Of a stretch of DNA of 64,000 bases, positions 3,953-62,774 are shown in pieces. Within the stretch, counting starts at the first letter, position 1. Every line of letters starts with the position of its first letter. Both the position numbers and the translations under genes were made by a program. The stretch spans positions 26,164,001-26,228,000 of the forward strand of contig OZ024757.1 in NCBI GenBank assembly GCA_964016885.1, written 5' to 3'. The notes beneath the pieces were generated by a model. That model ran no database searches. It was given only the letters and a program-made list of their open reading frames with translations, and was not told the DNA's origin. The DNA comes from Eledone cirrhosa (lineage: Eukaryota).

Positions 3953-4402
3953 TATAGTACATAGAATAATATACAAATGTTAGGAAAGTGAACAGTGTAT
4001 GAGTCATGATATAATGAAAATTATTGTGTACAGTGCTCAGGTGCACTACAACTCATCAAAGGTGCATGTATAGTACATAGAATAATATACAAATGTTAGG
4101 AAAGTGAACAGTGTATGAGTCATGATATACACACAGACATATACGAGAGTGTAAATGGAGGGGGAATATCAGATGTAGTGTTGGCGAATTTCGGGAAGCA
4201 TGGAAGTTTTGATGGATGCAGTGTCATGACAGCTAACAACTGGGGTCTCGGGATACGCAATCTTTGTGCATCCATCCCAAGCCCCCCAGGACAGGTCACA
4301 GGCCCATTGCCAGTTTTTATGGCATGAAATGGAGACTGCAATACATATTTTGAACAGCCCCCTCTACCTAAGGCATGGTAAATGATGGTTAAAATACTTT
4401 AA

Positions 4403-4616
4403 CCCTTTAGCATTTACATTACTCTATATATATTATTATATTTTCACAGTAAAAGCTTTACCTCATATATATATATCTCAGATGATATCAAATCTATGAG
4501 ATTTTGATATTATTTATTTTGAGAACAATACCTTAACGTCAGTATGAGCAGCCGGTTATGGCCAGTTTGAACAGAGAGAATTCTGGCCGGATAAGGCCGG
4601 TTTAAATGCTAAAGGG
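4403..4616. mobile_element. piggyBac-type MITE
   Basis: TIR ccctttagcattta/taaatgctaaaggg with TTAA on both sides; further copies in the window. Confidence 0.85.
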
Positions 4617-4704
4617 TTAAAATACTTTAAACACACATAAAATGTTTAAAATGTTTAAAAATTTCCTTAGAATAAACTCTGCAGTGCCCAAATCTTTTGC
4701 AAGG

Positions 4705-6287: not shown

Positions 6288-6480
6288 ATAGGAACAAGTA
6301 TGACCCCGACGGCAGAGCTCAAGCCGTTTCGACGACTATTTCTAGTCCAGAAATAGTCGTCGAAACGGCTTGAGCTCTGTCGTCAGGGTCATACTTGTTC
6401 CTATTACCCACTCTACCACCCTAAGTAGTGAGTACTTTGGTGCGTTATGGTCCATCTGCTTCCTTACCACAATTCCTTCG

Positions 6481-6482
<2 letters not shown>
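6288..6482 (+). mobile_element. Fold-back element family A: 56-bp arms, hammerhead 3' half, unique tail
   Basis: IR 6288-6343/6349-6404; GAAA-CGGC..GTCG-TC stem III and cleavage triplet; tail ttacccactct..gagtac; (TA)n flank. Confidence 0.8.
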
Positions 6483-6532
<50 letters not shown>

Positions 6533-6644
6533 CTCACACGTACACACACAATACACACACACACACACACATAAATATATACAAGCATGGAAAAGCGGAT
6601 GTAAAATAGCGTACCAAAATGTTGGTACCCTTGAAATATATATA

Positions 6645-6850
6645 TTTGTTTCTACTTTTGGCACAAGGCCACCAATTATCCCAGTGTATTACTGGTACTT
6701 TATTTTATCGACCCTGTAAGGATGAAAGGCAAAGTGAAACTCGGCGGGATTTGAACTCTGACCATAAAGGGCCGTAACTCTTTGCTGCTAAGAATCGAAC
6801 TCACGGCCTTATGGTCATGAGACGAACACCCTAGACACTAAGCTACACGC
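6645..6850 (-). mobile_element. SINE family 1 fused to the head of a second tRNA SINE
   Basis: Family 1 body followed by gaatcgaactcacggcc..cactaagctacacgc. Confidence 0.7.
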
Positions 6851-10035: not shown

Positions 10036-10182
10036 TTTACTATTTTTTGGCAATATTAGGTCAACACGACTCTCTCCAAATATAACAATATTATTTTTAT
10101 TGTTTACTAAGTAAGCAATAAAAATAATATTGTTATATTTGGAGAGGGTCATGTTGACCTAATATTGCCAAAAAATAGTAAA
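10036..10182. repeat. Long palindrome with ~72-bp arms
   Basis: tttactattttttggcaatattaggtcaaca..tgttgacctaatattgccaaaaaatagtaaa. Confidence 0.85.
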
Positions 10183-10254
10183 TTTTTGTAATAAATATTT
10201 TGTAATAAAGAAATCATTATTATTGAATAAAGAAATCATTACTTACTTATTTTT

Positions 10255-10446
10255 GTGGATTGGCAGTATCGGTAGAGGGTCGAACGCCATGCTTTGCATT
10301 GCAGCAAAGAGTTACGGCCCTTTATGCTCTGAGTTCAAATCCCGCCAAAATTAACTTTGCCTTTCATCTTTACGGGGTCGATAAAATAAAGTACCAGTAA
10401 TGTACCGAGTAATTGCTGGCCTTGTGTCAAAATTAGAAACAATTAT
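10255..10446 (+). mobile_element. tRNA-derived SINE, family 1
   Basis: gtggattggcagtatcggtagag..gagttcaaatccc..tagaaacaattatt. Confidence 0.9.
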
Positions 10447-13339: not shown

Positions 13340-14340
13340 AACCCTTCTGATGCCAAACCACCAGAAACCGCCCTGGTTCTCTGGTTCTGTAATACAAACC
13401 TATTTAATTTAGATTGTTTATATTAATACATAACTCTTTCATTATGTAAGTCACAGTCAGTGACTTACATAATGAAACGTGTATATGTCGTATAGTAAAT
13501 AAATACACACACATATATATATTAGGTCTGAACACAATTGTTTCTACATTTGGCACAAGGCCAGCAATTACTCAGTGTATTACTGGTACTTTATTTTATC
13601 GACCCCGAAAGGATGAAACCTTATTGAATCAAATTCCCATTGTCACTGCTTCATCTAAGTTATATCGCAAACACCATTGTGATAACGAGAACGTTAATTT
13701 ATATGATTAAATCTCTTTAAATTCCTAGTTATTTTCAAAATTATTTGAAAGTCATAGGCAGTGTCTTTCATTAGAAATATAATAACGAAAGGGTTAAACG
13801 AGATCTACGCTATTTCTATGAAAACTTGAAAGAATGTTGGTGGTGGATCAACCAAATATTTCCTCACGCAAATAAAGATTTTCAAGCAATTTATTCTTTC
13901 TTAACCCTTTCGTTACCATATTCATAATGAAAGACACTGCCTATGACTTTCAAATAATTTTTTAACAATTTTGAAAATCATCATTAAGTTGGTATTTGAA
14001 AAATAATTGTTTTTTTACATAAAAATTTCGATGGGTGATTTAAAAATAAATTATACACATTTTTAACAATTTCGTTACCATATTTCTAATTAAAGACACT
14101 GACTATGATTTTCAAATAATTTCGAAAATCATCAAGAGATTTAGAATTGTTAAGTTGGTGTTTCGAAGATAACAAAGGTTGTTACATAAAATTAATCCGG
14201 AAGGTTTTTAGATAATTATAAACTAATATTTCTAATTAAAGACACTGCCTAAGATTTTCAAATGATTTTTGAAAAATTTAGTATTATTACTAAACCTTCC
14301 CATTAAGCTGGTGTTTGGAACATAACTTAACAAAACTTAT
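13340..14340. mobile_element. Decayed TTAA-type MITE copies with nested insertions
   Basis: gaaagggttaa (~13796) and ttaaccctttcgttacc (13901) ends; repeated aaagacactgcctatga. Confidence 0.55.
13437..13495 (+). ncRNA. Hammerhead 3' half on an 18-bp hairpin
   Basis: tttcattatgtaagtcac-agtca-gtgacttacataatGAAA-CG..CG-TA. Confidence 0.4.
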
Positions 14341-14727: not shown

Positions 14728-14959
14728 CACATATATATTTGGAGGCCTCCCCTCCAAAATGTATACACACAGGCTGTACATTCTAATATATATTGCCTGT
14801 ACAGGTAATCAAAGTGTGTATATATTTTTGTGGGACAGCCTCTATACACAGTGGAGCCTCGGTTCATGAATTTAATTCGTTCCTAAAGGTCGCTCGGCAA
14901 TTGAAATGTTCGTAAACCGAAACTATTTTTTCGATACGAATCAATGTAAAATGGATTAA

Positions 14960-15164
14960 CCCTTTAACATTTACATTACTCTATATATACTATTGTATTT
15001 TCACAGTAAACACTTCATCTCACATAATATCAAATCTATGAAATTTTGAAATTTATTTTGAAAACAACACCTTAACATAAGTATGAGTGGCCGGTTATGG
15101 CTGGTTTGAACAGAAAGAGGTGAGAGAATTCTGGCCGGATATGTCTGGTTTAAATGCTAAAGGG
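14960..15164. mobile_element. piggyBac-type MITE nested in the Tigger remnant
   Basis: Same TIRs as 4403 and TTAA TSD. Confidence 0.85.
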
Positions 15165-15418
15165 TTAATCCATTCCTGGACCCCCAGATGGTTGCTTATT
15201 TAAACTTTTACACCAGTAATTTGTGTCCAAGTTCATACACAAAACCAATGAAATTCATTAAATCTAACACAAATAAAGAAAACCACAATACTAAACACAT
15301 CAAATATAGGGGAAAAGTTTATTCAATTTTTACTGTACCTATAAGGAAGAGAATTGATGGTGTAAGGAGGTGATGAGAAGAGAAGGGAAGAGATGTTATT
15401 GTTTGGAAGGGGAGTCTC

Positions 15419-25225: not shown

Positions 25226-25545
25226 CAGTTGCATTTATCTTGCTTTATGTTCATACGAGTTATCACCAAGTCACAACCAGTGACCTCAAGAGACAACAAG
25301 GTCCGCCATGTTCAAGAAAGAACATACATACTCACACATGCATCTTTGGTGTTTAGACTTGTGATGTACTTATATTGACAGAATCTTCCTTAGTATATGG
25401 GCAGTTCCCATTAGTACTATCTTTTGTATTTCTCCTATACGCGGGTTTGCTGGGATTTGCGATAAGTAATCATTAGACCCCTTAGGTATCATTCCCAGAG
25501 CGCCTACAACCACTGGTATTGTTTTAGTTCTCAATTTCCACATTT
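25226..25545 (-). mobile_element. Second R4/Dong-like 3' fragment in (TAA)n
   Basis: IPVVVGALG..IQKIVLMGTAHILRKIL; (TAA)n flanks. Confidence 0.8.
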
Positions 25546-25563
25546 TTATTATTATTATTATTA

Positions 25564-28500
25564 TCTTTTCCACTCTATTTTAAACATGACCTCACTCAGA
25601 ATAGGCAGCATAAATGCGCGTGGCTTGGGGTCGTCATGGAAGCAGGGTCACCTGCTCAACGACCTCAGGTCACTAAACATAGATGTAGTGGCCATCAGCG
25701 AGACCAGAATCTCCGAAGCACGGGCCTTCGCACCGATCTTCGGCGGCTTCGATGTGTACGCATCTCCCAGCCGTCCTGGATCCGGTGGAGGAGTTGCTGT
25801 GCTTTTTCGGAGAGGTTTGGATCTCGCCATACGGGCCATCTTCCTGGACCCAGAGGGTAAGCTGGTGGTGCTGGACGTGACCAGCGGAGACGGGCAAGCT
25901 TTCAGGCTAGTGGCCGTCTATGCCCCGACAGGAGCAGGGCGGCCTGATTTCTTCCGGCGTCTGGAGACCTTTCTTGGAACGTCCCGCTCTTTAGTGTTAG
26001 TGGGCGACTGGAACGGGATCTTAGATGCACGCTGGGACTGTGTGGGATTAGCGGATAGGGGTGGAGGGTGCAAGAGCCTCACCAACCTGCTCAGGCGTTT
26101 TGAACTGTCTGACAGGTACCGATTGGATTTCCCGAATGTGCCAATGTGGACTTGGACAAACCGCATAGGGTCATCCAGATCATATCTAGATAGAGTATTT
26201 TGTAGGGAAATAGATAGGTCTAGCATAGGCTGTCCACAATTCAAGATAGTCAGCTACACGGACCACAAATTCGTGATCTGTGTGCTTGACTTAGATAGGC
26301 TTCATAGACGAGGACCCGGCTACTGGAAGCTAAACGCGTCCTTACCAGCGCGCAAGGCCTACAGAGACCGGATTAGCGAACTAGTTAAGCGGGCGTTGAC
26401 GGGGGCCATCGTCAACAACAAGTGGTGGTTTGCTCTGAAAAGAGCGATTAGAATAGAATCGATTAGGTTTAGTAAGGCTTTAGCAATAGAGAAAAATAGA
26501 GCAGAGGGAGAACTAGTTAGAAAATTAGACGAGGCGCTTAGCAAAGGCATTGCGACCGACGTGCTTGCGGCGAAATTGGCCCTTGACCAATTCTTCAATG
26601 CAAAGCACGAAGGCTGCGTTGTCAGAGCTAGGGTGCGTGCTCTCAGACACGAGGGGACGAAAGCCGTTCAATGGGCCCGAGTGGCGGAGGCGCGTCGTGG
26701 CAACAAAGCCACGATCCGGTCTTTGGTGGACCACGACGGGCGCATGCTACTCGATCCCGGGCAAATGTGTGAAGCTTTTCAGCGACACTTCGCTCAGCTG
26801 TTCGGGGGCAGCGGGGGGCCGGGTAGAGGGATGGACTTTAGTGTCTACCTCGACGGACTGCCGCGGCTCTCGGCCACTGAGGCGAAGTGTTGCGAAAAGC
26901 CGATAACAGCCGCTGAAGTACGGGAGGCAATGACTGGCTGCACAAGGGGTAAATCGCCTGGTTTGGATGGTCTGCCCTATGAACTTTACGTACAGATGCC
27001 AGACTTGTTCGGAGGCCTCTTGGCGGACGTCTACTGCAACTGGCAACAGAACGGGAGAATTCCCAGTTCTGTGAGCCGAGGAGCGGTGGCACTGCTGAGA
27101 AAGGATCCGAACAAGGGGGATAACATAGACAATTTCCGGCCCATAACTCTGCTAAACACAGAGTTTAAGATTTTGGCCAAGGTGCTAGCAAAGAGGTTGG
27201 CGCTTGTCGTTGGTGGTCTGGTGGGAGAGGCGCAGACATGCGCCATTCCCGACAGATCCATCCACGACAACCTCCACCTCATGCGATACATCGTAGAGAG
27301 GGTAGCTAGGGAACCTGGCACGGGTGGGTCCTTGATCAATTTAGATCAGTCGAAAGCTTTCGATAGGGTCGACCATCGTTACCTAGCGGCAGTCCTGAGG
27401 GCGGCTGGCTTTGGGCCCGTCTTCAGAGGCTGGATCGCTGCCATGCACAGCGACATCTGCTCTGTGGTGAGAGTGAACGGTCACCTGTCGGAACCGTTCA
27501 ACATCATGCGCTCGGTCCGCCAAGGATGTCCCCTCTCGTCCCTCTTGTACGTATTGACTCTCGAGCCATTACTGCACAAACTGGAGACGTTGAGGGGAGT
27601 CCCGCGCGAACTAGGATGCGGAAGATCCGTGTCAGCATATGCGGACGATGTCACCGTAGTGGTGTCGAACGCCAAACACATCGAGGCGATCGGCACTACA
27701 CTAAGAGAATACGAAGCGGTGACAGGAGCAATGATCAACCAGGAAAAGTCAGTGGGCCTGCAGCTCGGCACCTGGAGAGGCAGGTCCATGCCGTCCAACA
27801 GCGTCGTCGGGCGCTGGACGGACGGACCGGTTAAATTGCTAGGGGTCTGGTTCGGTCCGGACCTCCAGACGGACAAAAACTGGGACGAGGTGACGAGCAG
27901 GGTGGCTTCTCTCACCCAGAAATGGGCGGAGAGGAAGCTATCCCTGAAAGGTCGAGCGGAGGTGGCTAACGCGTACATCGCGTCTGTCATCTGCTACCGC
28001 CTAACCGTCGTACCTTGTCCTAAGCCTCGCCTGACTGCGCTGGAGCGTTTGCTCTTTCGCTTTTTGTGGAAGGGACGTGCTCCGATGGTCAGGCGGTCCA
28101 TCTGTTGTCAACACCCGCTACGTGGAGGGCTGGGCATGCCGTGGCTGATGATGCGCAGGCACGCGCTCAGGCTACGACATCTCCACCTCTTCCTCGACGG
28201 TGATCAGGTGTGGTCGCCGTTTGCTAGACGCGTTTTTCCCCAGCTCGTTTCCTTGACGGAGCTGCAGTCCTGGGTCAAGCGAAGACCGAGAGGGAGCGCC
28301 TGGAGACTGGAATGTCTTCAGGCGCTCACAGCCCTCGACCAATCGGGCAATGTGATCGGTGGAAACTCCACCTCGGCGTTCTATAGAGGATTAGTGGAGG
28401 GGAAGAGCGACGACGTACTTGGGGAAACTCTAGGCGTCGACGAAAATCAACTAGCCAATCTCTTCGGAAGAACTTTCGGGCCGGAGCCTATGGACAACTT

Positions 28501-29266
28501 CCAGAAATCTCTGGCCTGGCAGTGCTACCGAGGAGCCTTGCCAGTTCGGGATAAACTCTACAGGCATGGAGGTGCCGTCAGCCGGGCATGTCCGAGATGC
28601 GCGCAGGGCGACGAAACCGTCCTGCACGCACTCGTCCAGTGTCCGAAAATTGCTGACTTGTGGGTTTATGTCGAACACCTGCTGTCGCGTTTAGGACGGA
28701 TCCAGCTATCATCTGAGTCTATCGTGAGGATTGCCCCGCCCTCCTCCTTTAGCCGGGAAGGGCAGGCAGTTTTTATCTGTCTGGTGGCCATGGCGAAAGA
28801 GATAGTATGGTGGACACGTTTGAAAGGGCTGAAGACGAGCACTTACCTCTTCGGTGATGCTCTGATTGACTTTTTCAAATTTCATTTGAAAAGGAAAATC
28901 AGAGTAGAGAAGGAAGTGCTCTCTTCCCAGCATTTTGTTGAAAGATGGGTGAGAGAAGCAAGAATGGCCCGAGTGAATGGGCCGACTCTGAGTATATATC
29001 TGTAAACTAAAGGTGGAAAACTGGGAGAGGGCACTTGCCTTGGTGGTCAGGGTCATTGTGGCTTTTTACTGGGCTTTCTCCACAAATGTCCCTCCGAAGT
29101 CTCCCCCCTATTGGGGAATTTTTCATTGTTATTTTCATTGTTATTTTTGTTACATCCTCTGTTTTTGTTTTTTTTACACGCAGAAATGCCCATTTGTACC
29201 GTCCTGCATTGTCCTGCACTGTCCTTAATGTCTACTTTATGTAAACCCTTGTGGTTAATAAAGAAA

Positions 29267-32719: not shown

Positions 32720-32814
32720 GTCAGGACCCCGACGGCAGAGCTTCGGCCATTTCGACAGCTAGAATCTAGCTGTCAAAACGTCTGGAGCCCAGCTGTCGGG
32801 GTCCTGACTCTTTT

Positions 32815-32818
<4 letters not shown>
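32720..32818. mobile_element. Fold-back family A, diverged palindrome in (TA)n
   Basis: gtcaggaccccgac..gacagctaga-a-tctagctgtc..gtcggggtcctgac. Confidence 0.75.
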
Positions 32819-33024: not shown

Positions 33025-33060
33025 TCTTCTGATGAAGGACTAGCATCCGAAACGTTAAGA
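33025..33060 (+). ncRNA. Minimal type I hammerhead ribozyme
   Basis: tctt-CTGATGA-a-gga ctagca tcc-GAAA-cg-TT-aaga; its downstream tail recurs inverted at ~39990-40065. Confidence 0.75.
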
Positions 33061-35694: not shown

Positions 35695-36760
<1,066 letters not shown>

Positions 36761-36767
<7 letters not shown>

Positions 36768-37178
36768 AGATCAAAAGATGGTTAAAGGAGTTCCATGTAT
36801 TTTATTATGCGCATTTCAAAAACAAACATCATCATGCAATAATATTTGTGTTTTCATCAGATAAAACAGGAGAACATGATATGAAGGCTAAAAAACACTT
36901 GTGGATAGTGCAGTTTTAAATCAATATATGTTGATTTAAAACTGCACTATCCACAAGTGTTTTTTAGCCTTCATATCATGTCCTCCTGTTTTATCTGATG
37001 AAAACACAAATATTATTGCATGATGATGTTTGTTTTTGAAATGCGCATAATAAAATACATGGAACTCCTTTAACCATCTTTTGATCTTATATTATGCATA
37101 CTCCAGTCCTACAAACTGTAGAGTGCTTCTTATCCGATATCTGCATTGCTTTATTGTACTACAATAAAACTCACCTCC

Positions 37179-37439: not shown

Positions 37440-37737
37440 ATTTATGTTCATACGCGGAACATTGGCATTGCCCAAGGTTTCAAAGCCCAAATTTGACCAT
37501 ACCTCCTGAATACAAGAGACATCAAGTTAATGATATTTCTTTAGGCGCTTATACAAGTAAAGACCAGAAAGACCTCTATTCAACCTAATACTCTATACTT
37601 ACGAAAAGCAGAGTTTAAATATTACCAGAATCTTCTGCCCTATAGCGAAGCTTTTACTATTTCAACAACAGATGGAGATCTAAAATTCTGCTCTATATCT
37701 GCTGTTGAAATGGTAAAAATTTAACCATAGGGCAGAA
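37440..37737 (-). mobile_element. Diverged fold-back element with hammerhead 3' half
   Basis: IR 37633-37737; GAAA-tggt aaaaattta acca-TA-gggcagaa; actct..agagt hairpin at 37590-37614. Confidence 0.65.
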
Positions 37738-37778: not shown

Positions 37779-37874
37779 AGGAAAAAGAATGACCCCGACG
37801 GCAGAGCTCAAGCGGTTTCGACGGCTATTTCTGGTGCGTTATGGTCCATCTGGTTCCTTACCACAATTCCTTTG

Positions 37875-37876
<2 letters not shown>
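37779..37876 (+). mobile_element. Fold-back family A with the right arm deleted
   Basis: Left arm joined directly to the tail ggtgcgttatggtccatctg. Confidence 0.75.
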
Positions 37877-47970: not shown

Positions 47971-47990
47971 ATATATAAATATATATAATT

Positions 47991-48355
47991 TAAAATGTTA
48001 ATAAATGAAAAATATTCTCATAATCAAAATATATATTTTATTATACATATTTCAAAGGTACAATGCTGTTTAAGTACATTTTCATCAGACAAAATATAAG
48101 ATTTGATATGTGACATACTGCTACGGTTTTGATTAATTAATTCAAGTATAGGAATTGAATAATCAAAACCGTAACAGTATGTACCTTTGAAATATGTATA
48201 ATAAAATATATATTTTGATTATGAGAATATTTTTCATTTATTAACATTTTTAATAATATTAAACACTCCAGGAAAATCTCTTGTCGAGTGCTTCTAATCT
48301 ATTGTAAAGTTGTATTCGTTGATTAATCAACAAACAATATTAATTTTTGGTTATA
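47991..48355 (+). mobile_element. Fold-back family B; hammerhead intact only in the left arm (minus strand 48036-48094)
   Basis: IR 47991-48251; ttttgt-CTGATGA..GAAA-tatgta-TA-ataaaa; right arm lacks ~50 bp including the core; tail actccag..gagtgcttctaatctattg. Confidence 0.8.
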
Positions 48356-48370
48356 TATATATATATATAT

Positions 48371-48744
48371 TTATACTTTGGGAGGGTCATGTTGCCAATA
48401 AGAAACACACGCACCAGTTGCTTTCACTCCAATTTATTATAAATTAAAAAAATTATGGTGGATTGGCAGTATTGGTAGAGGGTTGGACGCCATGCTTTCC
48501 AGCATAGTTACGTCCCTTTACGATCTGAGTTCAAATCCGACCGAGGTTGACTTTGCCTTTCATCCTTACGGGGTCGATAAAATAAAGTCCCAGTAATGCA
48601 TTGGGTAATTGCTGACCTTGTGCCTAAAGTAGAAACAATTATAAATTAAAAAATTAAAAAAAAATTTTTTGTTTATAATAAATTGGAGTGAAAGCAACTG
48701 GTGCGTGTGTTTCTTATTGGCAACATGACCCTCCCAAAGCATAA
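48371..48744. mobile_element. Fold-back element with ~73-bp arms and a family 1 SINE (48457-48640) in the loop
   Basis: IR 48371-48443/48672-48744; TSD attataaattaaaaaa(a)tta. Confidence 0.85.
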
Positions 48745-49544: not shown

Positions 49545-49888
49545 TATTAGATAAATACACACATAACTCTCTAGTTGATGTCTAAATTACATTAAGGGAG
49601 ACATGTTTCTGGATTGGAGACTGGCTTATTCTCTATTCAAGAGAAGATTGAAAACTAAAACCAGAAGAATATGCATGCATACAAAATACACGCAAACACA
49701 TATATACATACATGCATACATACTTACATACATACATATGCCAACATGAAAAAAAAATGACATAAAATTATGATGGCGCATATAGTTAATATGTATGTGT
49801 GTGTGCGTGTGTATATATGTATTATATATATATATGTATATGTATATATATATATGTATATATATATACATGTATATATATATACATG

Positions 49889-49947
<59 letters not shown>

Positions 49948-50040
49948 ATGTATGTATATATATATATACATGTATATGCATATATATATATGTATATATA
50001 TATACATGTATATATATATATGTATATATATATACATGTA

Positions 50041-52779
50041 TATGTCCCAACATAGACTGATAATTAGCGACCTCATAGTCAGGACGAGACGTACTCGACA
50101 ACAGAAGAGGACTATCCTCAGGAGGAAAATATGGAAGTTAAAGGACCCCACAGCCAGGAATAAATTTCAAAGCATATTACTTGATGCTTTCGACAGTAAG
50201 GAAGAACATTTAGAGTCGGACAATATAGAGGGAGAGTGGGAATTTCTGAAAGCAAACCTGCTGTTGGCGACAGACGAGGTCTGTGGCTGGAGCAGGCCTG
50301 TAGGCAGGAGGAGAGTAACATGGTGGTGGAACAGTAAGGTGGAGGGGTCAATTAAGGCCAAAAAGCAGGCTTGGAAAGTATGGCGGGATGGGGGAAGTAG
50401 AGAGGACTATCAAGTGGCCAGGAGGGAAGCTAGGAGACAAGTGTACTTAGCAAGAAGGGAAGCTGAGGAAAGAAAGTTCAAGCATGTTCTACAACGCGAT
50501 GACCAAAAACGTGAGGTGTTCAGGATTGCTAGGCAATGCGTCAAGGAAAACCGTGATATTGTCGGGGAGAAGTGTGTACTAAACGACGATGGCACACTTG
50601 CCATCACCGACGCTGATAAGAAGGTAGCTTGGAAGTGTCACTATGAAAGGCTTCTAAATGAGGAGAATAATTGGGAGAAAGGCAGTCTCCCCCATATCGA
50701 CCCAATAGAGGGACCAGCAGTGTTAGTCGAGGGGAGTATAATAAGTAAGGCAATCAAGGATATGAAGACTGGTAAGGCGGCTGGGCCTTCGGAAATAGTT
50801 GCTGAGATGCTGAAGGCATCTGGCACGGTGGGACACACCATGGTCACCCGCATAGTTAACCAAGTCGTACAAAACGGGGTTGTTCCGAAGGACTGGCATA
50901 GCAGCATCATCGTTAACTGTTATAAGGGTAAAGGAGACGCCCTAGATAGGAGTAACTATAGAGGCATTAAATTAATCGACCAGGTCATGAAGGTCACGGA
51001 AAGAGTAATAGCGCAACTAATCAGAGAGAGAATTGACCTAGATGAAATGCAGTTCGGGTTTGTGTCAGGCAAAAGTACCACAGACGCTCTTTTCATAGTA
51101 CGACAACTACAAGAGAAGTACCTAGCTAAAGGTAAACCCCTCTACTTAGCTTTTGTCGACTTGGAGAAAGCCTTCGACAGAGTCCCCCGCTCCATTATCT
51201 GGTGGGCTCTTAGAAAACTAGGCGTTGACGAATGGCTTGTGAGGGCTATACAAGCCATGTATAAAGAAACAGTCAGCAAGGTTAGAATTAACAACGAATA
51301 TAGTGAAGAGTTTAGCGTAAAAGTCGGCGTCCATCAGGGCTCTGTTCTCAGTCCACTACTATTTATTATTGCCCTTCAGGCCATAACAGAGGAGTTCAAG
51401 ACAGGCTGCCCATGGGAACTCCTATACGCAGACGACCTGACACTCATAGCGGAATCAATGGCCGAGCTAGAGAAGAAATTCCAAACATGGAAGCACGGCC
51501 TAGAGTCAAAAGGACTTAAAATTAACCTGGCTAAGACCAAAGTACTAGTTTGTAGGAAAGAAAACAAGGCGGCGGTCCCTTCTGGGAAATGGTCGTGCTC
51601 GGTGTGTAGGAAAGGCGTAGGTAGAAACTCCATTTTATGTCCTAAATGCAAAGTATGGGTGCATAAAAGATGTAGTGGGATCACAGGTAGGCTAACTAAG
51701 AACATAGATTTTACATGTGGCCGGTGCTCTGGTGCAATAAGTAGCAGCAAGTGCCCACAAACTACTAGCTCTTTCAATTGCGCAGAGGGTTCTATAGAAA
51801 TAGTGGACAGCTTCCGTTACCTGGGCGATAAAATCAGCAGTGGGGGAGGGTGCTCTGAAAGTACTGTAGCTAGAGTCAGAACTGGTTGGAAAAAGTTCAG
51901 AGAGCTTATACCACTATTAGCTGCTAAAGGGTTCTCACTAAAAATGAAAGGCAGGTTGTACGATGCCTGCATACGAACAGCAATGCTGCATGGCAGTGAG
52001 ACCTGGGCATTGTGTGCAGAGGATATACGCAGACTAGAGAGGAACGAAGCTTGCATGCTCCGCTGGATGTGTAACAGTAATATACGTGAACGGCAAAGCA
52101 TAAACGAACTAAGGAATAAATTAGAGATAAGAGGGATCAGATGTTGTTTACTCGAGAGAAGGCTACGTTGGTATGGACACGTGATGCGCATGAAAGTCGA
52201 TAGCTGTATAACAAAGTGCAGGGCAATAAAGATAGACGGTAGTCACGGAATAGGCAGACCTAGAAAAACCTGGGACGAGCTGATAAACTCCGACATCACA
52301 CACTTACACCTCTCCAAGACAATGTCACTGGACCGAGACCTTTGGCGGTACTCAGTAACAGAGAAGACCCGCCTTACCTAAATATATAGTAAAACCTACT
52401 CCAGCCAGTAGGCATCTCTAACAAATACACCCCGTCCCACCACCCCCACCCGATCCACACCACCCCGTTCTATGTAAAGTTATGTTGGTGCCGCGCCATC
52501 GAGGCCGAAACAAATGAGATCGTGTAGGTGTCACGACAAAAAAACACACAGTCCACGCTGTAATGTGGCCGTGTAGGCAACACGGTAAAAACCTCCCAGA
52601 CCCACACTGTAAATGTGGTTGGTGTTAGGAAGGGCATCCAACTGTAGAAAACCTGCCAGACAGTCCTATGCGAGCAAGACAATCACTCTTGCCTCAAGTG
52701 GGACTACCCCCGTCCAAACCCATGCAAGCGTGGAACACGGACGTTAAACGCTGATGATGATGATGATGATGATGATGAT
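50041..52779 (+). mobile_element. RTE LINE with ~400-nt 3' UTR and (GAT)n tail, in (TA)n
   Basis: 3' UTR shared with many truncated copies and with SINE family 2. Confidence 0.9.
50045..52381 (+). CDS. RTE-type LINE polyprotein, 5'-truncated: RT plus PHD-like C4HC3 finger, stop-free for ~780 aa
   Basis: [32 protein letters not shown]; CSVC..CPKC..HKRC..CGRC; [18 protein letters not shown]; the ORF start at 49799 is (TA)n readthrough. Confidence 0.92.
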
Positions 52780-54421: not shown

Positions 54422-54700
54422 TATTATTATTATGTAATAAACAACATAAGGCAATTATTCCATTTACCAGTGGTTTCTTAAAAGCAAAAGGTTTTGCTTT
54501 CAATCCTCAGAATGAAAAAATCCTGGTTTGTTTTTTCATTCTGAGGATTGAAAGCAAAACCTTTTGCTTTTAAGAAACCACTGGTAAATGGAATAATTGC
54601 CTTATGTTGTTTATTACATAATAATAATAATTAAGCTCTGTTGCCTACATAGAGCACTCTTTTTTCCTGGACTTTTCCGATGGAATTACTTCATTTACAT
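54422..54700 (+). mobile_element. Fold-back element: perfect 99-bp arms, hammerhead 3' half, tail
   Basis: IR 54422-54520/54531-54629; GAAA-gcaaaa cc ttttgc-TT; tail gctct..agagc. Confidence 0.85.
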
Positions 54701-54913: not shown

Positions 54914-55316
54914 ATATAATTGAAAAAGTGGAGAATAACATGGTCAACAGTACAAAAAAGGGTATTTATTTGCAGTCTAATTGTTTCACTGATAGAGTTC
55001 CCGATGATCTAGTAGAGTTAACATCATATTTAAAATTGAGTGGCACTGTTTTTAGTGTTCAGCAATTTTTAGACAACTCTATCAGTGAAACAATTGTTAG
55101 ACTGCAAATAAATACCCCTTTTTTGTACTGTTGACCATGTTATTCTCCACTTTTTCAATTATATTACTCCAAGATAAACTTACATAGGAATACAAGTGAA
55201 ATCATAAACTTGTCCTCTACGTAAACTTCTTGTTGAGTCAAGCAACGCCGTACGCTAAAACCATCCATAATAAGAAGTATTCACAATTGGATTACCTTTA
55301 ACAATATTTTGTTATC

Positions 55317-60200: not shown

Positions 60201-60580
60201 ATACATCTACCATATTCAACTCAATGACTGTTTTACACACAAATATATATAAACACATATTTGACAAGGGTCATGTTGTAATATTGACAGAAATATATAA
60301 TAAAATACACTCATTGAATATAAATGTATGTATATATATATACATATATGTATTTGGACATACACATACAAGCATATAGACACACATTTATGAAATGTGA
60401 AAATCTGAGAGTCCCAAATGCAGGAAATATCTAAGAATAGTTGATCAATATAGATAATAGTTTTTAAAAAATTGGGTAAATTACTCTTAGATCAGGAAAA
60501 TGTGGACATAGATATTTAGAAAGAATTCATAAGGTTTATATATATATATGTATGTATGTGTGTGTGTATATATATATATA

Positions 60581-60804
60581 GTAATAATAATAAATTTGAA
60601 GACTAAAATCCAAAGAGGGCTTGATAAGGATAAAAATATATCAAATATATAAGGACCATAGAGCAAATATTTATTAAAATAACAGATTAAAGTTTAAGCA
60701 AAGAATTGCTGCTTTCACCCTTAACGGGATCTTCTGAAACATCCCATTAAGGGTGAAAGCAGCGATTCTTTGCTTAAACTTTAATCTGTTATTTTAATAA
60801 ATAT
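60581..60804 (-). mobile_element. Fold-back element with 64-bp arms and hammerhead 3' half
   Basis: IR 60667-60730/60741-60804; GAAA-gcag cgattct ttgc-TT; tail on the left; arm end recurs at ~32891. Confidence 0.8.
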
Positions 60805-60820
60805 ATATATATATATATAT

Positions 60821-61061
60821 ATTAGAAATAGAAGCTTTCGCCATATTTTTTTTACTAAAGAAATTTTAGCCTGATAGTGGGGTTTAGAACCCTCTAAGAA
60901 ATGGAAAAAGATGAGTACGTCAATACTCATCTTTTTCCATTTCTTAGAGGGTTCTAAACCCCACTATCAGGCTAAAATTTCTAATTCCTTCAGTAAAAAA
61001 TACGACGAAAGCTTCTGTTTCTAATTTCAAAATCGGTCGGTGTTTCAAAACATACTTACTT
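60821..61061 (+). mobile_element. Fold-back element with ~100-bp arms and a short tail
   Basis: IR 60821-60917/60924-61025; loop cgtcaa; cgaaagctt near the arm end. Confidence 0.75.
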
Positions 61062-62178: not shown

Positions 62179-62585
62179 GACCAAAAGTTAAACAAGGTTC
62201 ATTGATTAATCAATGAATATAGTTTTACAATAGATTAGAAGCACTCAACAGAAAGTTTTCTGGAGTTATTAATATTAATTCAAAATATTAATAAATATAG
62301 ACATTCAACATAATCAAAATATATTTTATTATATATATTTTATTATATATATATTATATATATTTCGGAGGTACTGTGCTGTTTTTTCAGTACGTCCTCA
62401 TCAAACAAAATATATAAATTGATGCATGACATACCTCAACTGTTGAGGTATGTCATGCATCAATTTATATATTTTGTCTGATGAGGACGTACTGAAAAAA
62501 CAGCACAGTACCTCCGAAATATATATAATAAAATATATTTTGATTACATTGAATGTCTATATTTATTAATATTTTGAATTAATAT
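62178..62585 (-). mobile_element. Fold-back family B, ~145-165-bp arms centred at 62441
   Basis: Tail homologous to 48255-48350; hammerhead in the arms. Confidence 0.85.
62472..62533 (+). ncRNA. Type I hammerhead ribozyme
   Basis: ttttgt-CTGATGA-ggacgtactg..cagtacctcc-GAAA-tatata-TA-ataaaa; the mirror copy reads TTGATGA. Confidence 0.8.
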
Positions 62586-62597
62586 ATATATATATAT

Positions 62598-62766
62598 GTG
62601 TAAAACAAAGTGGGTGTGGTAAGATACTAGGTGGACCATAACACACCAGAGTACTTGATACTTGGGGTAGTAGAGTGGGTAATATGAAAAGATTCAGGTC
62701 CCCGACGGCTGAGTTTGGATCTAGCTGTCGAAACGACTGGAGTTCAGCTGTCAGGGTCCTGAATCT

Positions 62767-62774
<8 letters not shown>
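62598..62774 (-). mobile_element. Fold-back family A in minus orientation
   Basis: Tail is the reverse complement homologue of 6405-6482; IR 62682-62774 with one arm partly deleted. Confidence 0.8.

What the first reader, a model, noticed from the sequence alone, without database searches (positions are those of the whole stretch)
54422..54629. Inversion axis falls on the predicted hammerhead stem-II loop
Seen: at 6288, 13437, 32720, 37633, 54422 and 60667 (weaker at 48371 and 54914) the centre of the palindrome is a 10-20 bp hairpin. It is directly followed by GAAA, a separate stem III and a UH site, for example GAAAcggc..gccgTC, GAAAtggt..accaTA, GAAAgcaaaa..ttttgcTT. CUGANGA and the 5' stem I strand are replaced by the antisense copy. 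Stem III pairing is not a by-product of the outer symmetry. Inferred: nascent cDNA snaps back on the ribozyme's own stem II and self-primes, producing a palindrome and destroying the ribozyme. That would be a structure-defined route to PLE inverted ends.
Basis: partly seen in the sequence, partly recalled or inferred. Interest (0 to 1): 0.8.

Follow-up and report, generated by a model that had tools for sequence, protein, structure and literature searches.

The report
Cap-marked junctions in Penelope retrotransposon hairpins
These short DNA palindromes are head-to-head insertions of Penelope-type retrotransposons whose ribozyme motif usually stays intact, and an extra G at their centres suggests they likely form when two reverse-transcribed copies each run off the RNA's capped start and are joined end to end.

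Summary
54422-54629 is a real palindrome (99-bp arms) with a one-sided 69-bp tail, set in (TA)n. It is a short inverted insertion of a young Hydra-type Penelope-like element (PLE); 4.3-kb copies carry a 714-aa RT + GIY-YIG ORF. The axis falls in loop II in 0 of 40 copies of this family, 1 of 8 of the 60667 family and 30 of 32 of the 6288/32720 family. In that last family a TATA/Inr-like start lies inside loop II, and true stem-II snap-back junctions are near absent (1 unclean match). The common landmark is a sharp 5' stop carrying a G that the long copies lack: 38 of 40 purine-flanked stops in the 54422 family, and 128 loci of the 60667 family with it on both arms. This likely marks the RNA cap. 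Best model: both target strands prime reverse transcription, each cDNA runs off the capped 5' end, and the two are end-joined. No RNA data confirm the start site.

The parts
54422..54520 (-). Tail-less arm of the F1 PLE insertion; holds a full hammerhead motif (54514-54461); inferred cDNA primed at internal site 2
54521..54530 (-). Spacer: extra upstream reach of the tail-less arm, joined to the other arm in a T/A run; 16 nt upstream of the core
54531..54629 (+). Tail-bearing arm of F1 (5' UTR/pLTR of the element)
54537..54590 (+). Type I hammerhead motif: stem I CATT/AATG, CTGAGGA 54541-47, stem II 54548-73, GAAA 54574-77, stem III CC/GG, UA site 54585-86
54630..54698 (+). One-sided PLE tail, ending at inferred RT start site 1, then (TA)n
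6288..6481 (+). F2 hairpin insertion plus tail; axis at AGTCC, the +1 site inside loop II of long copies; core absent
32720..32817 (.). Older F2-type hairpin, arms diverged
37784..37875 (.). F2 antisense arm joined directly to a tail fragment, no sense arm (two-cDNA type chimera)
62603..62774 (-). F2-type hairpin with tail on the left
60580..60804 (-). F5 hairpin (60667-60804) with tail on the left; tail arm keeps variant core CAGAAGA and stem II
36760..37095 (.). Counter-example: 165-bp-arm palindrome with a full CTGATGA hammerhead motif in both arms (36989-37055 on +), axis 68 nt upstream of the core
62352..62530 (+). Counter-example: palindrome with CTGATGA at 62478, stem II and GAAA; axis about 37 nt upstream
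13437..13477 (.). 20-bp-arm palindrome, no family found; untestable
37633..37737 (.). Diverged palindrome (76% between arms), no family found; untestable

Best explanation
The palindromes are short head-to-head insertions of Hydra-type Penelope-like elements, and their axis likely marks the capped 5' end of the element's RNA (or a trimmed point just inside it), not a ribozyme stem. Inferred steps: the element's endonuclease nicks both strands of a (TA)n target. Each 3'-OH primes reverse transcription of the uncleaved sense RNA at one of two internal sites 60-95 nt apart, the ends of the tail. Each cDNA runs to the RNA 5' end and copies the cap as an extra C. The two cDNA ends are then joined blunt, with 0 to a few filler bases, or trimmed back to a microhomology. 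The junction lies in loop II only in the family whose start site lies there.
For: Shown: (1) long copies of F1, F2 and F5 carry RT + GIY-YIG ORFs; in L178 the stop site is 316 nt upstream of the ATG. (2) Hairpin and non-inverted truncated copies stop at one family-specific site. In F2 and F5 it is TTAGTY/TCAGTC, and F2 has TATTTAAA or TATTTAT at -29 to -31. (3) A G absent from long copies precedes that site. F1: 38 of 40 purine-flanked arms, all listed, including 9 of 9 with TA/TG-repeat flanks. F5: G 63, A 29, C 8 of the first 100 of 1,981 (hand count). (4) Both arms carry it: 128 F5 loci read AAACT-C..G-AGTTT (reversed control 3); 36 of the first 50 have a 0-1-nt spacer, too short for a snap-back loop. 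The same pattern occurs in F1 and F2 (L201-L204, L206). (5) Either arm may reach further or keep the G alone. From papers: a PLE protein cuts and extends both target strands and starts RT at two sites bounding the tail, and hammerhead cleavage is not needed (PMC11167929); an extra G at full-length L1 5' junctions reflects the cap (PMC11702581).
Against: No RNA 5'-end data; the start site is inferred from DNA alone. Some Gs could come from microhomology with the opposite arm: about a third of the G rows and 4-5 rows. F1's +1 (G after T/C) has no canonical Inr or TATA, and F5 has no TATA. 24 of 40 sampled F1 junctions, 54422 among them, lie more than 9 nt inside +1, so trimming or later deletion must be invoked; 36 F1 loci were picked for likeness to 54422. 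A few junctions lie upstream of +1 (L179, L181). Many inverted F1 pairs lie 1-11 kb apart and need priming on the downstream pLTR copy. The cap test was run on three families only.
Confidence: 0.72

Rival explanations
1. One cDNA runs off the capped end and is closed into a hairpin or snaps back; the second arm is a DNA copy of the first and is resolved by the endonuclease at site 2.
For: It also puts the axis at the cap and gives matching arms. R2 cDNA snap-back after full-length synthesis is documented (PMC11371274). Craig 2021 ascribe the tail to EN-mediated resolution (PMC8557442). A frequent F2 junction (GGCTAWTTC|AGTCC, about a third of the 100 rows) fits a 3-4-bp fold-back.
Against: 0-1-nt spacers between two extra C/G bases. 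The tail-less arm often reaches further than the tail arm or alone keeps the extra base (L207, L210). Antisense-arm-plus-tail chimeras without a sense arm exist (37784, L022). Both strands are extended in vitro (PMC11167929).
Confidence: 0.17
2. One reading: the cDNA snaps back on the ribozyme's own stem II, destroying the ribozyme.
For: In F2 the axis is in loop II in 30 of 32 hairpins and the core is lost.
Against: 0 of 40 in F1 and 1 of 8 in F5. The motif is intact in both arms at 54422 and 36760. The predicted full-loop junction matched once and is unclean (the pattern covers 3 of 4 loop variants seen). It does not explain the extra G.
Confidence: 0.03
3. Longer inverted insertions lost their centres afterwards by cruciform or microhomology deletion, and the apparent axis is a deletion end-point.
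For: It explains asymmetric, trimmed centres such as 54422 and 47983.
Against: It cannot add a non-genomic G, nor explain the same stop in non-inverted copies. It may act on top of the best model.
Confidence: 0.05
4. Self-priming on an antisense template, as proposed by Arkhipova 2013.
For: It was put forward to explain head-to-head PLE palindromes (PMC3846280).
Against: The extra G stands at the 5' end of the sense RNA on both arms, which points to a sense, capped template.
Confidence: 0.03

Closest known systems
Hydra clade of C-terminal-EN Penelope-like elements (Craig et al. 2021, PMC8557442)
   Same: RWK/RWR, DKT, CxCX5C linker, CxxC and CxH, no CCHH, (TA)n targets, hammerheads, single ORF.
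   Different: Units are 3.3-4.3 kb against generally under 3 kb; copy numbers reach 16,264 exact arms for one family; variant cores occur (CAGAAGA; U3-A8). No tree was built.
Inverted pLTR plus tail architecture of PLEs (Arkhipova 2013, PMC3846280; Craig 2021)
   Same: Head-to-head inverted copy, one-sided tail, palindrome at the junction.
   Different: Tails are 62-95 nt against 30-40 nt. The junction is tied here to a G-marked sense 5' end; those papers proposed antisense self-priming or EN resolution.
Anolis Poseidon PAc in vitro (Frangieh 2024, PMC11167929)
   Same: Two internal RT start sites bounding the tail, both target strands extended, uncleaved RNA used, predicted dimer.
   Different: In the parts read, the paper does not explain inverted insertions or report cap-derived bases; it is a different PLE clade.
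L1 twin priming and cap-G at 5' junctions (PMC11702581)
   Same: Second target strand primes RT; end joining resolves the inversion; extra G from the cap.
   Different: In L1 the two cDNAs cover adjacent, nearly non-overlapping parts. Here both copy the same 5' segment to its end from fixed sites, giving a palindrome.
Minimal PLE hammerheads (Cervera and de la Pena 2014, PMC4209133)
   Same: Type I motif, long stem II, short or palindromic stem III, U3-A8 variant, opposite-strand pairs 100-700 bp apart.
   Different: F1 lacks the G10.1-C11.1 pair; F2 has a predicted promoter inside loop II.

Membership tests
EN+ Penelope-like element | Single ORF with RT followed by GIY-YIG endonuclease | tested here: met
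   714-aa ORF linked to the F1 pLTR (L176, L178) with YRDD and VYEA..YVG; F5 712 aa, 42% identical. Atlas neighbours carry GIY-YIG/RVT_1 on a minority of members. Pfam and PDB gave no hit for the F5 ORF.
EN+ Penelope-like element | pLTRs in tandem or inverted arrangement with optional tail | tested here: met
   Tandem spacing about 4.29 kb, inverted pairs, one-sided tail.
Hydra clade | RWK motif, DKT, CxCX5C linker, no CCHH, CxxC and CxH flanks | tested here: met
   F1: RMRWKA, SDKTKN, CSCRKPDEC, CSLC, CPH against the paper's list; F5 has RWR.
Hydra clade | (TA)n insertion preference | tested here: met
Hydra clade | Phylogenetic placement among reference Hydra RTs | not tested
   No reference set fetched, no tree built.
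Type I hammerhead ribozyme (F1 motif) | CUGANGA and GAAA cores, stems I-III, UH site | tested here: met
   Descriptor hit; 96% paired, slid controls 38-58%.
Type I hammerhead ribozyme (F1 motif) | Covariation support or Rfam match | tested here: inconclusive
   1 pair with a two-sided change, 51 of 500 shuffles as high; no hammerhead family among listed Rfam rows.
Type I hammerhead ribozyme (F1 motif) | Self-cleavage | not testable with these tools
   Needs an assay.

The most novel reading that the evidence does not exclude
PLE integration is intrinsically two-headed: a PLE dimer primes cDNA from both target strands on capped sense RNA, so the inverted pLTR of PLEs is a second strong-stop cDNA. 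The cap-derived G maps each family's start site from the genome alone. One family places its promoter inside hammerhead loop II, so only the 3' copy of the transcript holds a whole ribozyme.
Probability: 0.6. Interest if true: 0.78.

Novelty: new variant of a known kind. Interest (0 to 1): 0.62.

Why it matters
How PLEs make head-to-head inverted ends is an open question: Arkhipova 2013 proposed antisense self-priming, and Craig 2021 and Frangieh 2024 leave the later steps unresolved. Thousands of junctions here give a directly countable signature, an extra G on both arms, that links the in vitro two-strand extension to the genomic structure. It also indicates that uncleaved, capped RNA with its hammerhead intact is the template, and gives a way to map PLE start sites without RNA data.

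Tried and rejected
My first reading of F1 as CTGAGGA-TT-GAAA with no stem II was wrong and was corrected. An early impression that the tail-less arm always reaches further was wrong; both directions occur. One search's gapped aligner overshoots the reach values by several bases, so I use only its axis-in-loop counts and rough direction. mis-scored rows where F1's own stem II mimicked a second arm; those rows were left out. One search used a mis-registered structure and was redone. Rfam scans listed only repeat- or hairpin-driven hits below threshold (one search showed 150 of 622 rows). Pfam and PDB found nothing for the F5 ORF. A DNA search for the 60667 family returned nothing, probably because its words are too common, and a pattern was used instead. 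Single-strand folds mostly did not give the hammerhead shape as the lowest-energy fold (the L193 stretch missed the motif's 3' half). No RNA holder listed. Contigs laid on 54425-54700 cover all bins but none spans the junction and they may be the source sample: uninformative. No earlier scan findings. PMC13000458, PMC7353768, PMC3681739 and the later L1 preprint version gave nothing used.

Full report
Observation. The window lies in a 3.0-Gb, microsatellite-rich genome. 54422-54629 is a perfect palindrome: 99-bp arms and a 10-nt spacer, followed on one side by a 69-bp tail and flanked by (TA)n. It belongs to a young family, F1, with 83 matches from 40 scored candidates and 735 exact arms for one motif. 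Junctions differ among copies, and each copy's two arms share subfamily variants, so inversions arise afresh at insertion. 6288, 32720, 37784 and 62682 belong to family F2 (2,084 candidates). 60667 belongs to F5 (16,264 exact arms). 13437 and 37633 found only themselves. 48371 and 54914 have 228- and 153-nt spacers.

What the elements are. Long F1 copies are 4.29-kb tandem units with a 714-aa ORF (L176, L178). F5 has a 712-aa ORF, 42% identical, and F2 a related one (L192). The F1 ORF shows RWK, DKT, YRDD, a CxCX5C linker, GIY-YIG-type motifs, CxxC and CxH, the features listed for Hydra-clade PLEs (PMC8557442, passages); F5 has RWR for RWK. Pfam and PDB gave no hit for the F5 ORF; the Atlas gave 0.96-0.99 neighbours, some carrying GIY-YIG or RVT_1. 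No tree was built. In L178 the palindromic segment and tail are the region 316 nt to about 120 nt upstream of the ATG, so they are the element's 5' UTR/pLTR.

The ribozyme. A type I descriptor finds a whole hammerhead motif in both arms of 54422: CATT-CTGAGGA-(stem II, 26 nt)-GAAA-CCACTGG-TA-AATG. Over 10 copies 96% of cells pair, with weak covariation. 56 of 180 distinct palindromes in the fetched DNA have a descriptor hit downstream of the axis. Most are F1; five other clusters and one single palindrome have the core 2-83 nt downstream of the axis, including 36760 in this window. F5 long copies read AGTTT-CAGAAGA-TCCCGTTAAGGGT-GAAA..TT-AAACT, a variant core with stem I at the very stop site. 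F2 long copies have a U3-A8-type core (TTGATAA, also CTGAGAA), stem II CGGCTA/TAGCCG and a loop of about 35-40 nt; the U3-A8 variant is described in PMC4209133 (parts 1-2 of 4). Activity is untested.

The axis lies in loop II in 0 of 40 F1, 1 of 8 F5 and 30 of 32 F2 hairpins (F1 sample biased toward 54422-like copies, F2 picked by arm plus tail). For F2, snap-back on native stem II predicts junctions that keep the whole loop. That pattern matched once (3 of 4 loop variants covered), and the locus has about 120 bp of other sequence inserted (L195). By contrast 7,363 exact arms have a non-T base directly before AGTCC (about a tenth of the 100 listed are long copies of a C variant). So the location is right for one family, and the mechanism is not supported.

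What the axis is. Each family has one sharp 5' stop shared by hairpins and by non-inverted truncated copies. In F2 and F5 it is TTAGTY or TCAGTC, like the Drosophila Inr (consensus recalled), and F2 has a TATA-like box at -29 to -31 inside loop II. A promoter in the pLTR is known for Penelope (PMC2377424, passages). Long copies have T or C before this site. Junction copies have G: 38 of 40 purine-flanked F1 arms (all listed), 9 of 9 where the flank is a TA/TG repeat (two may be one duplicated locus), and 63 G, 29 A, 8 C among the first 100 of 1,981 F5 arms (hand count; about a third of the Gs could be lent by the opposite arm). 128 F5 loci have the extra base on both arms (control 3); 34 of the first 50 have a 1-nt spacer and 2 have none. 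F1 and F2 show the same (L201-L204, L206). An extra G at full-length L1 junctions is read as the cap (PMC11702581, passage).

Mechanism (inferred). Both target strands are nicked and each primes RT on uncleaved sense RNA at one end of the tail. This matches the in vitro result that a PLE protein extends both strands from two sites bounding the tail and does not need hammerhead cleavage (PMC11167929, parts 1-2 of 4 and passages). Both cDNAs run off the cap and are end-joined, often trimmed to A/T microhomology as at 54422, sometimes with locally templated filler (L017-L019, L185). Either arm may reach further, and arm-plus-tail chimeras occur (37784, L022). The main rival is one cDNA closed into a hairpin and resolved by the endonuclease; R2 snap-back is known (PMC11371274, passages). 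Against my reading: no RNA data, F1 lacks a canonical core promoter, 24 of 40 F1 junctions lie well inside +1, and a few lie upstream.

Novelty. Inverted pLTR plus tail, junction palindromes and a self-priming proposal are in print (PMC3846280, passages; PMC8557442). I found no report of cap-derived G at PLE inverted junctions or of the axis equalling the start site in eight searches. The library lacks most subscription journals, and I read no supplements; those of Frangieh 2024 and Craig 2021 may bear on this. The retrozyme preprint (10.64898/2026.07.22.740005, part 1 of 5) was not relevant in the part read. Interest 0.62.

Noticed in passing
L192, L193, L194, L038, L054 (F2 long copies): TATA-like box at -29/-31 and Inr-like +1 both lie inside hammerhead loop II, so a transcript's 5' end would lack the ribozyme core while its 3' pLTR has it whole.
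   Followed up: partly
L138:1644-1690 (F5): Hammerhead-like motif with core CAGAAGA (U4 to A) in a 16,000-arm family; an older subfamily shows a compensatory stem II change (CCC/GGG to CCT/AGG, L127).
   Followed up: partly
L178:1325-1338 and L138:~1815-1830: F1 and F5 share GTTGAGCACTCTAC just upstream of the ATG; GAG(C/T)ACT also occurs in F1 and F2 tails, and AGATTG stands near -13 in F1 and F5. Possible protein-binding or promoter motifs.
   Followed up: no
window 33025-33060 (+) and around 61800 (-): Further intact minimal hammerhead motifs outside palindromes.
   Followed up: partly
window 47983-48259: Palindrome with a full hammerhead-like motif on the minus arm; the plus arm has lost the core by an internal deletion.
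   Followed up: partly
window 25466-29002 and 49790-52378 (+): Long open frames with YADD, LINE-type RT.
   Followed up: no
window ~48455-48640, ~10250-10440, ~6640-6800: A repeated SINE-like element; one copy fills the spacer of the 48371 palindrome.
   Followed up: no
window 60859-60982, 54914-55164, 10036-10182, 13737-13961, 4389-4630, 14950-15174, 36262-36720: Other inverted repeats; several have relatives in fetched loci and look like further PLE or DNA-transposon families.
   Followed up: partly
L017, L018, L019, L185: Junctions with repeated, locally templated inserts, suggestive of polymerase-theta-type joining (recalled signature).
   Followed up: no
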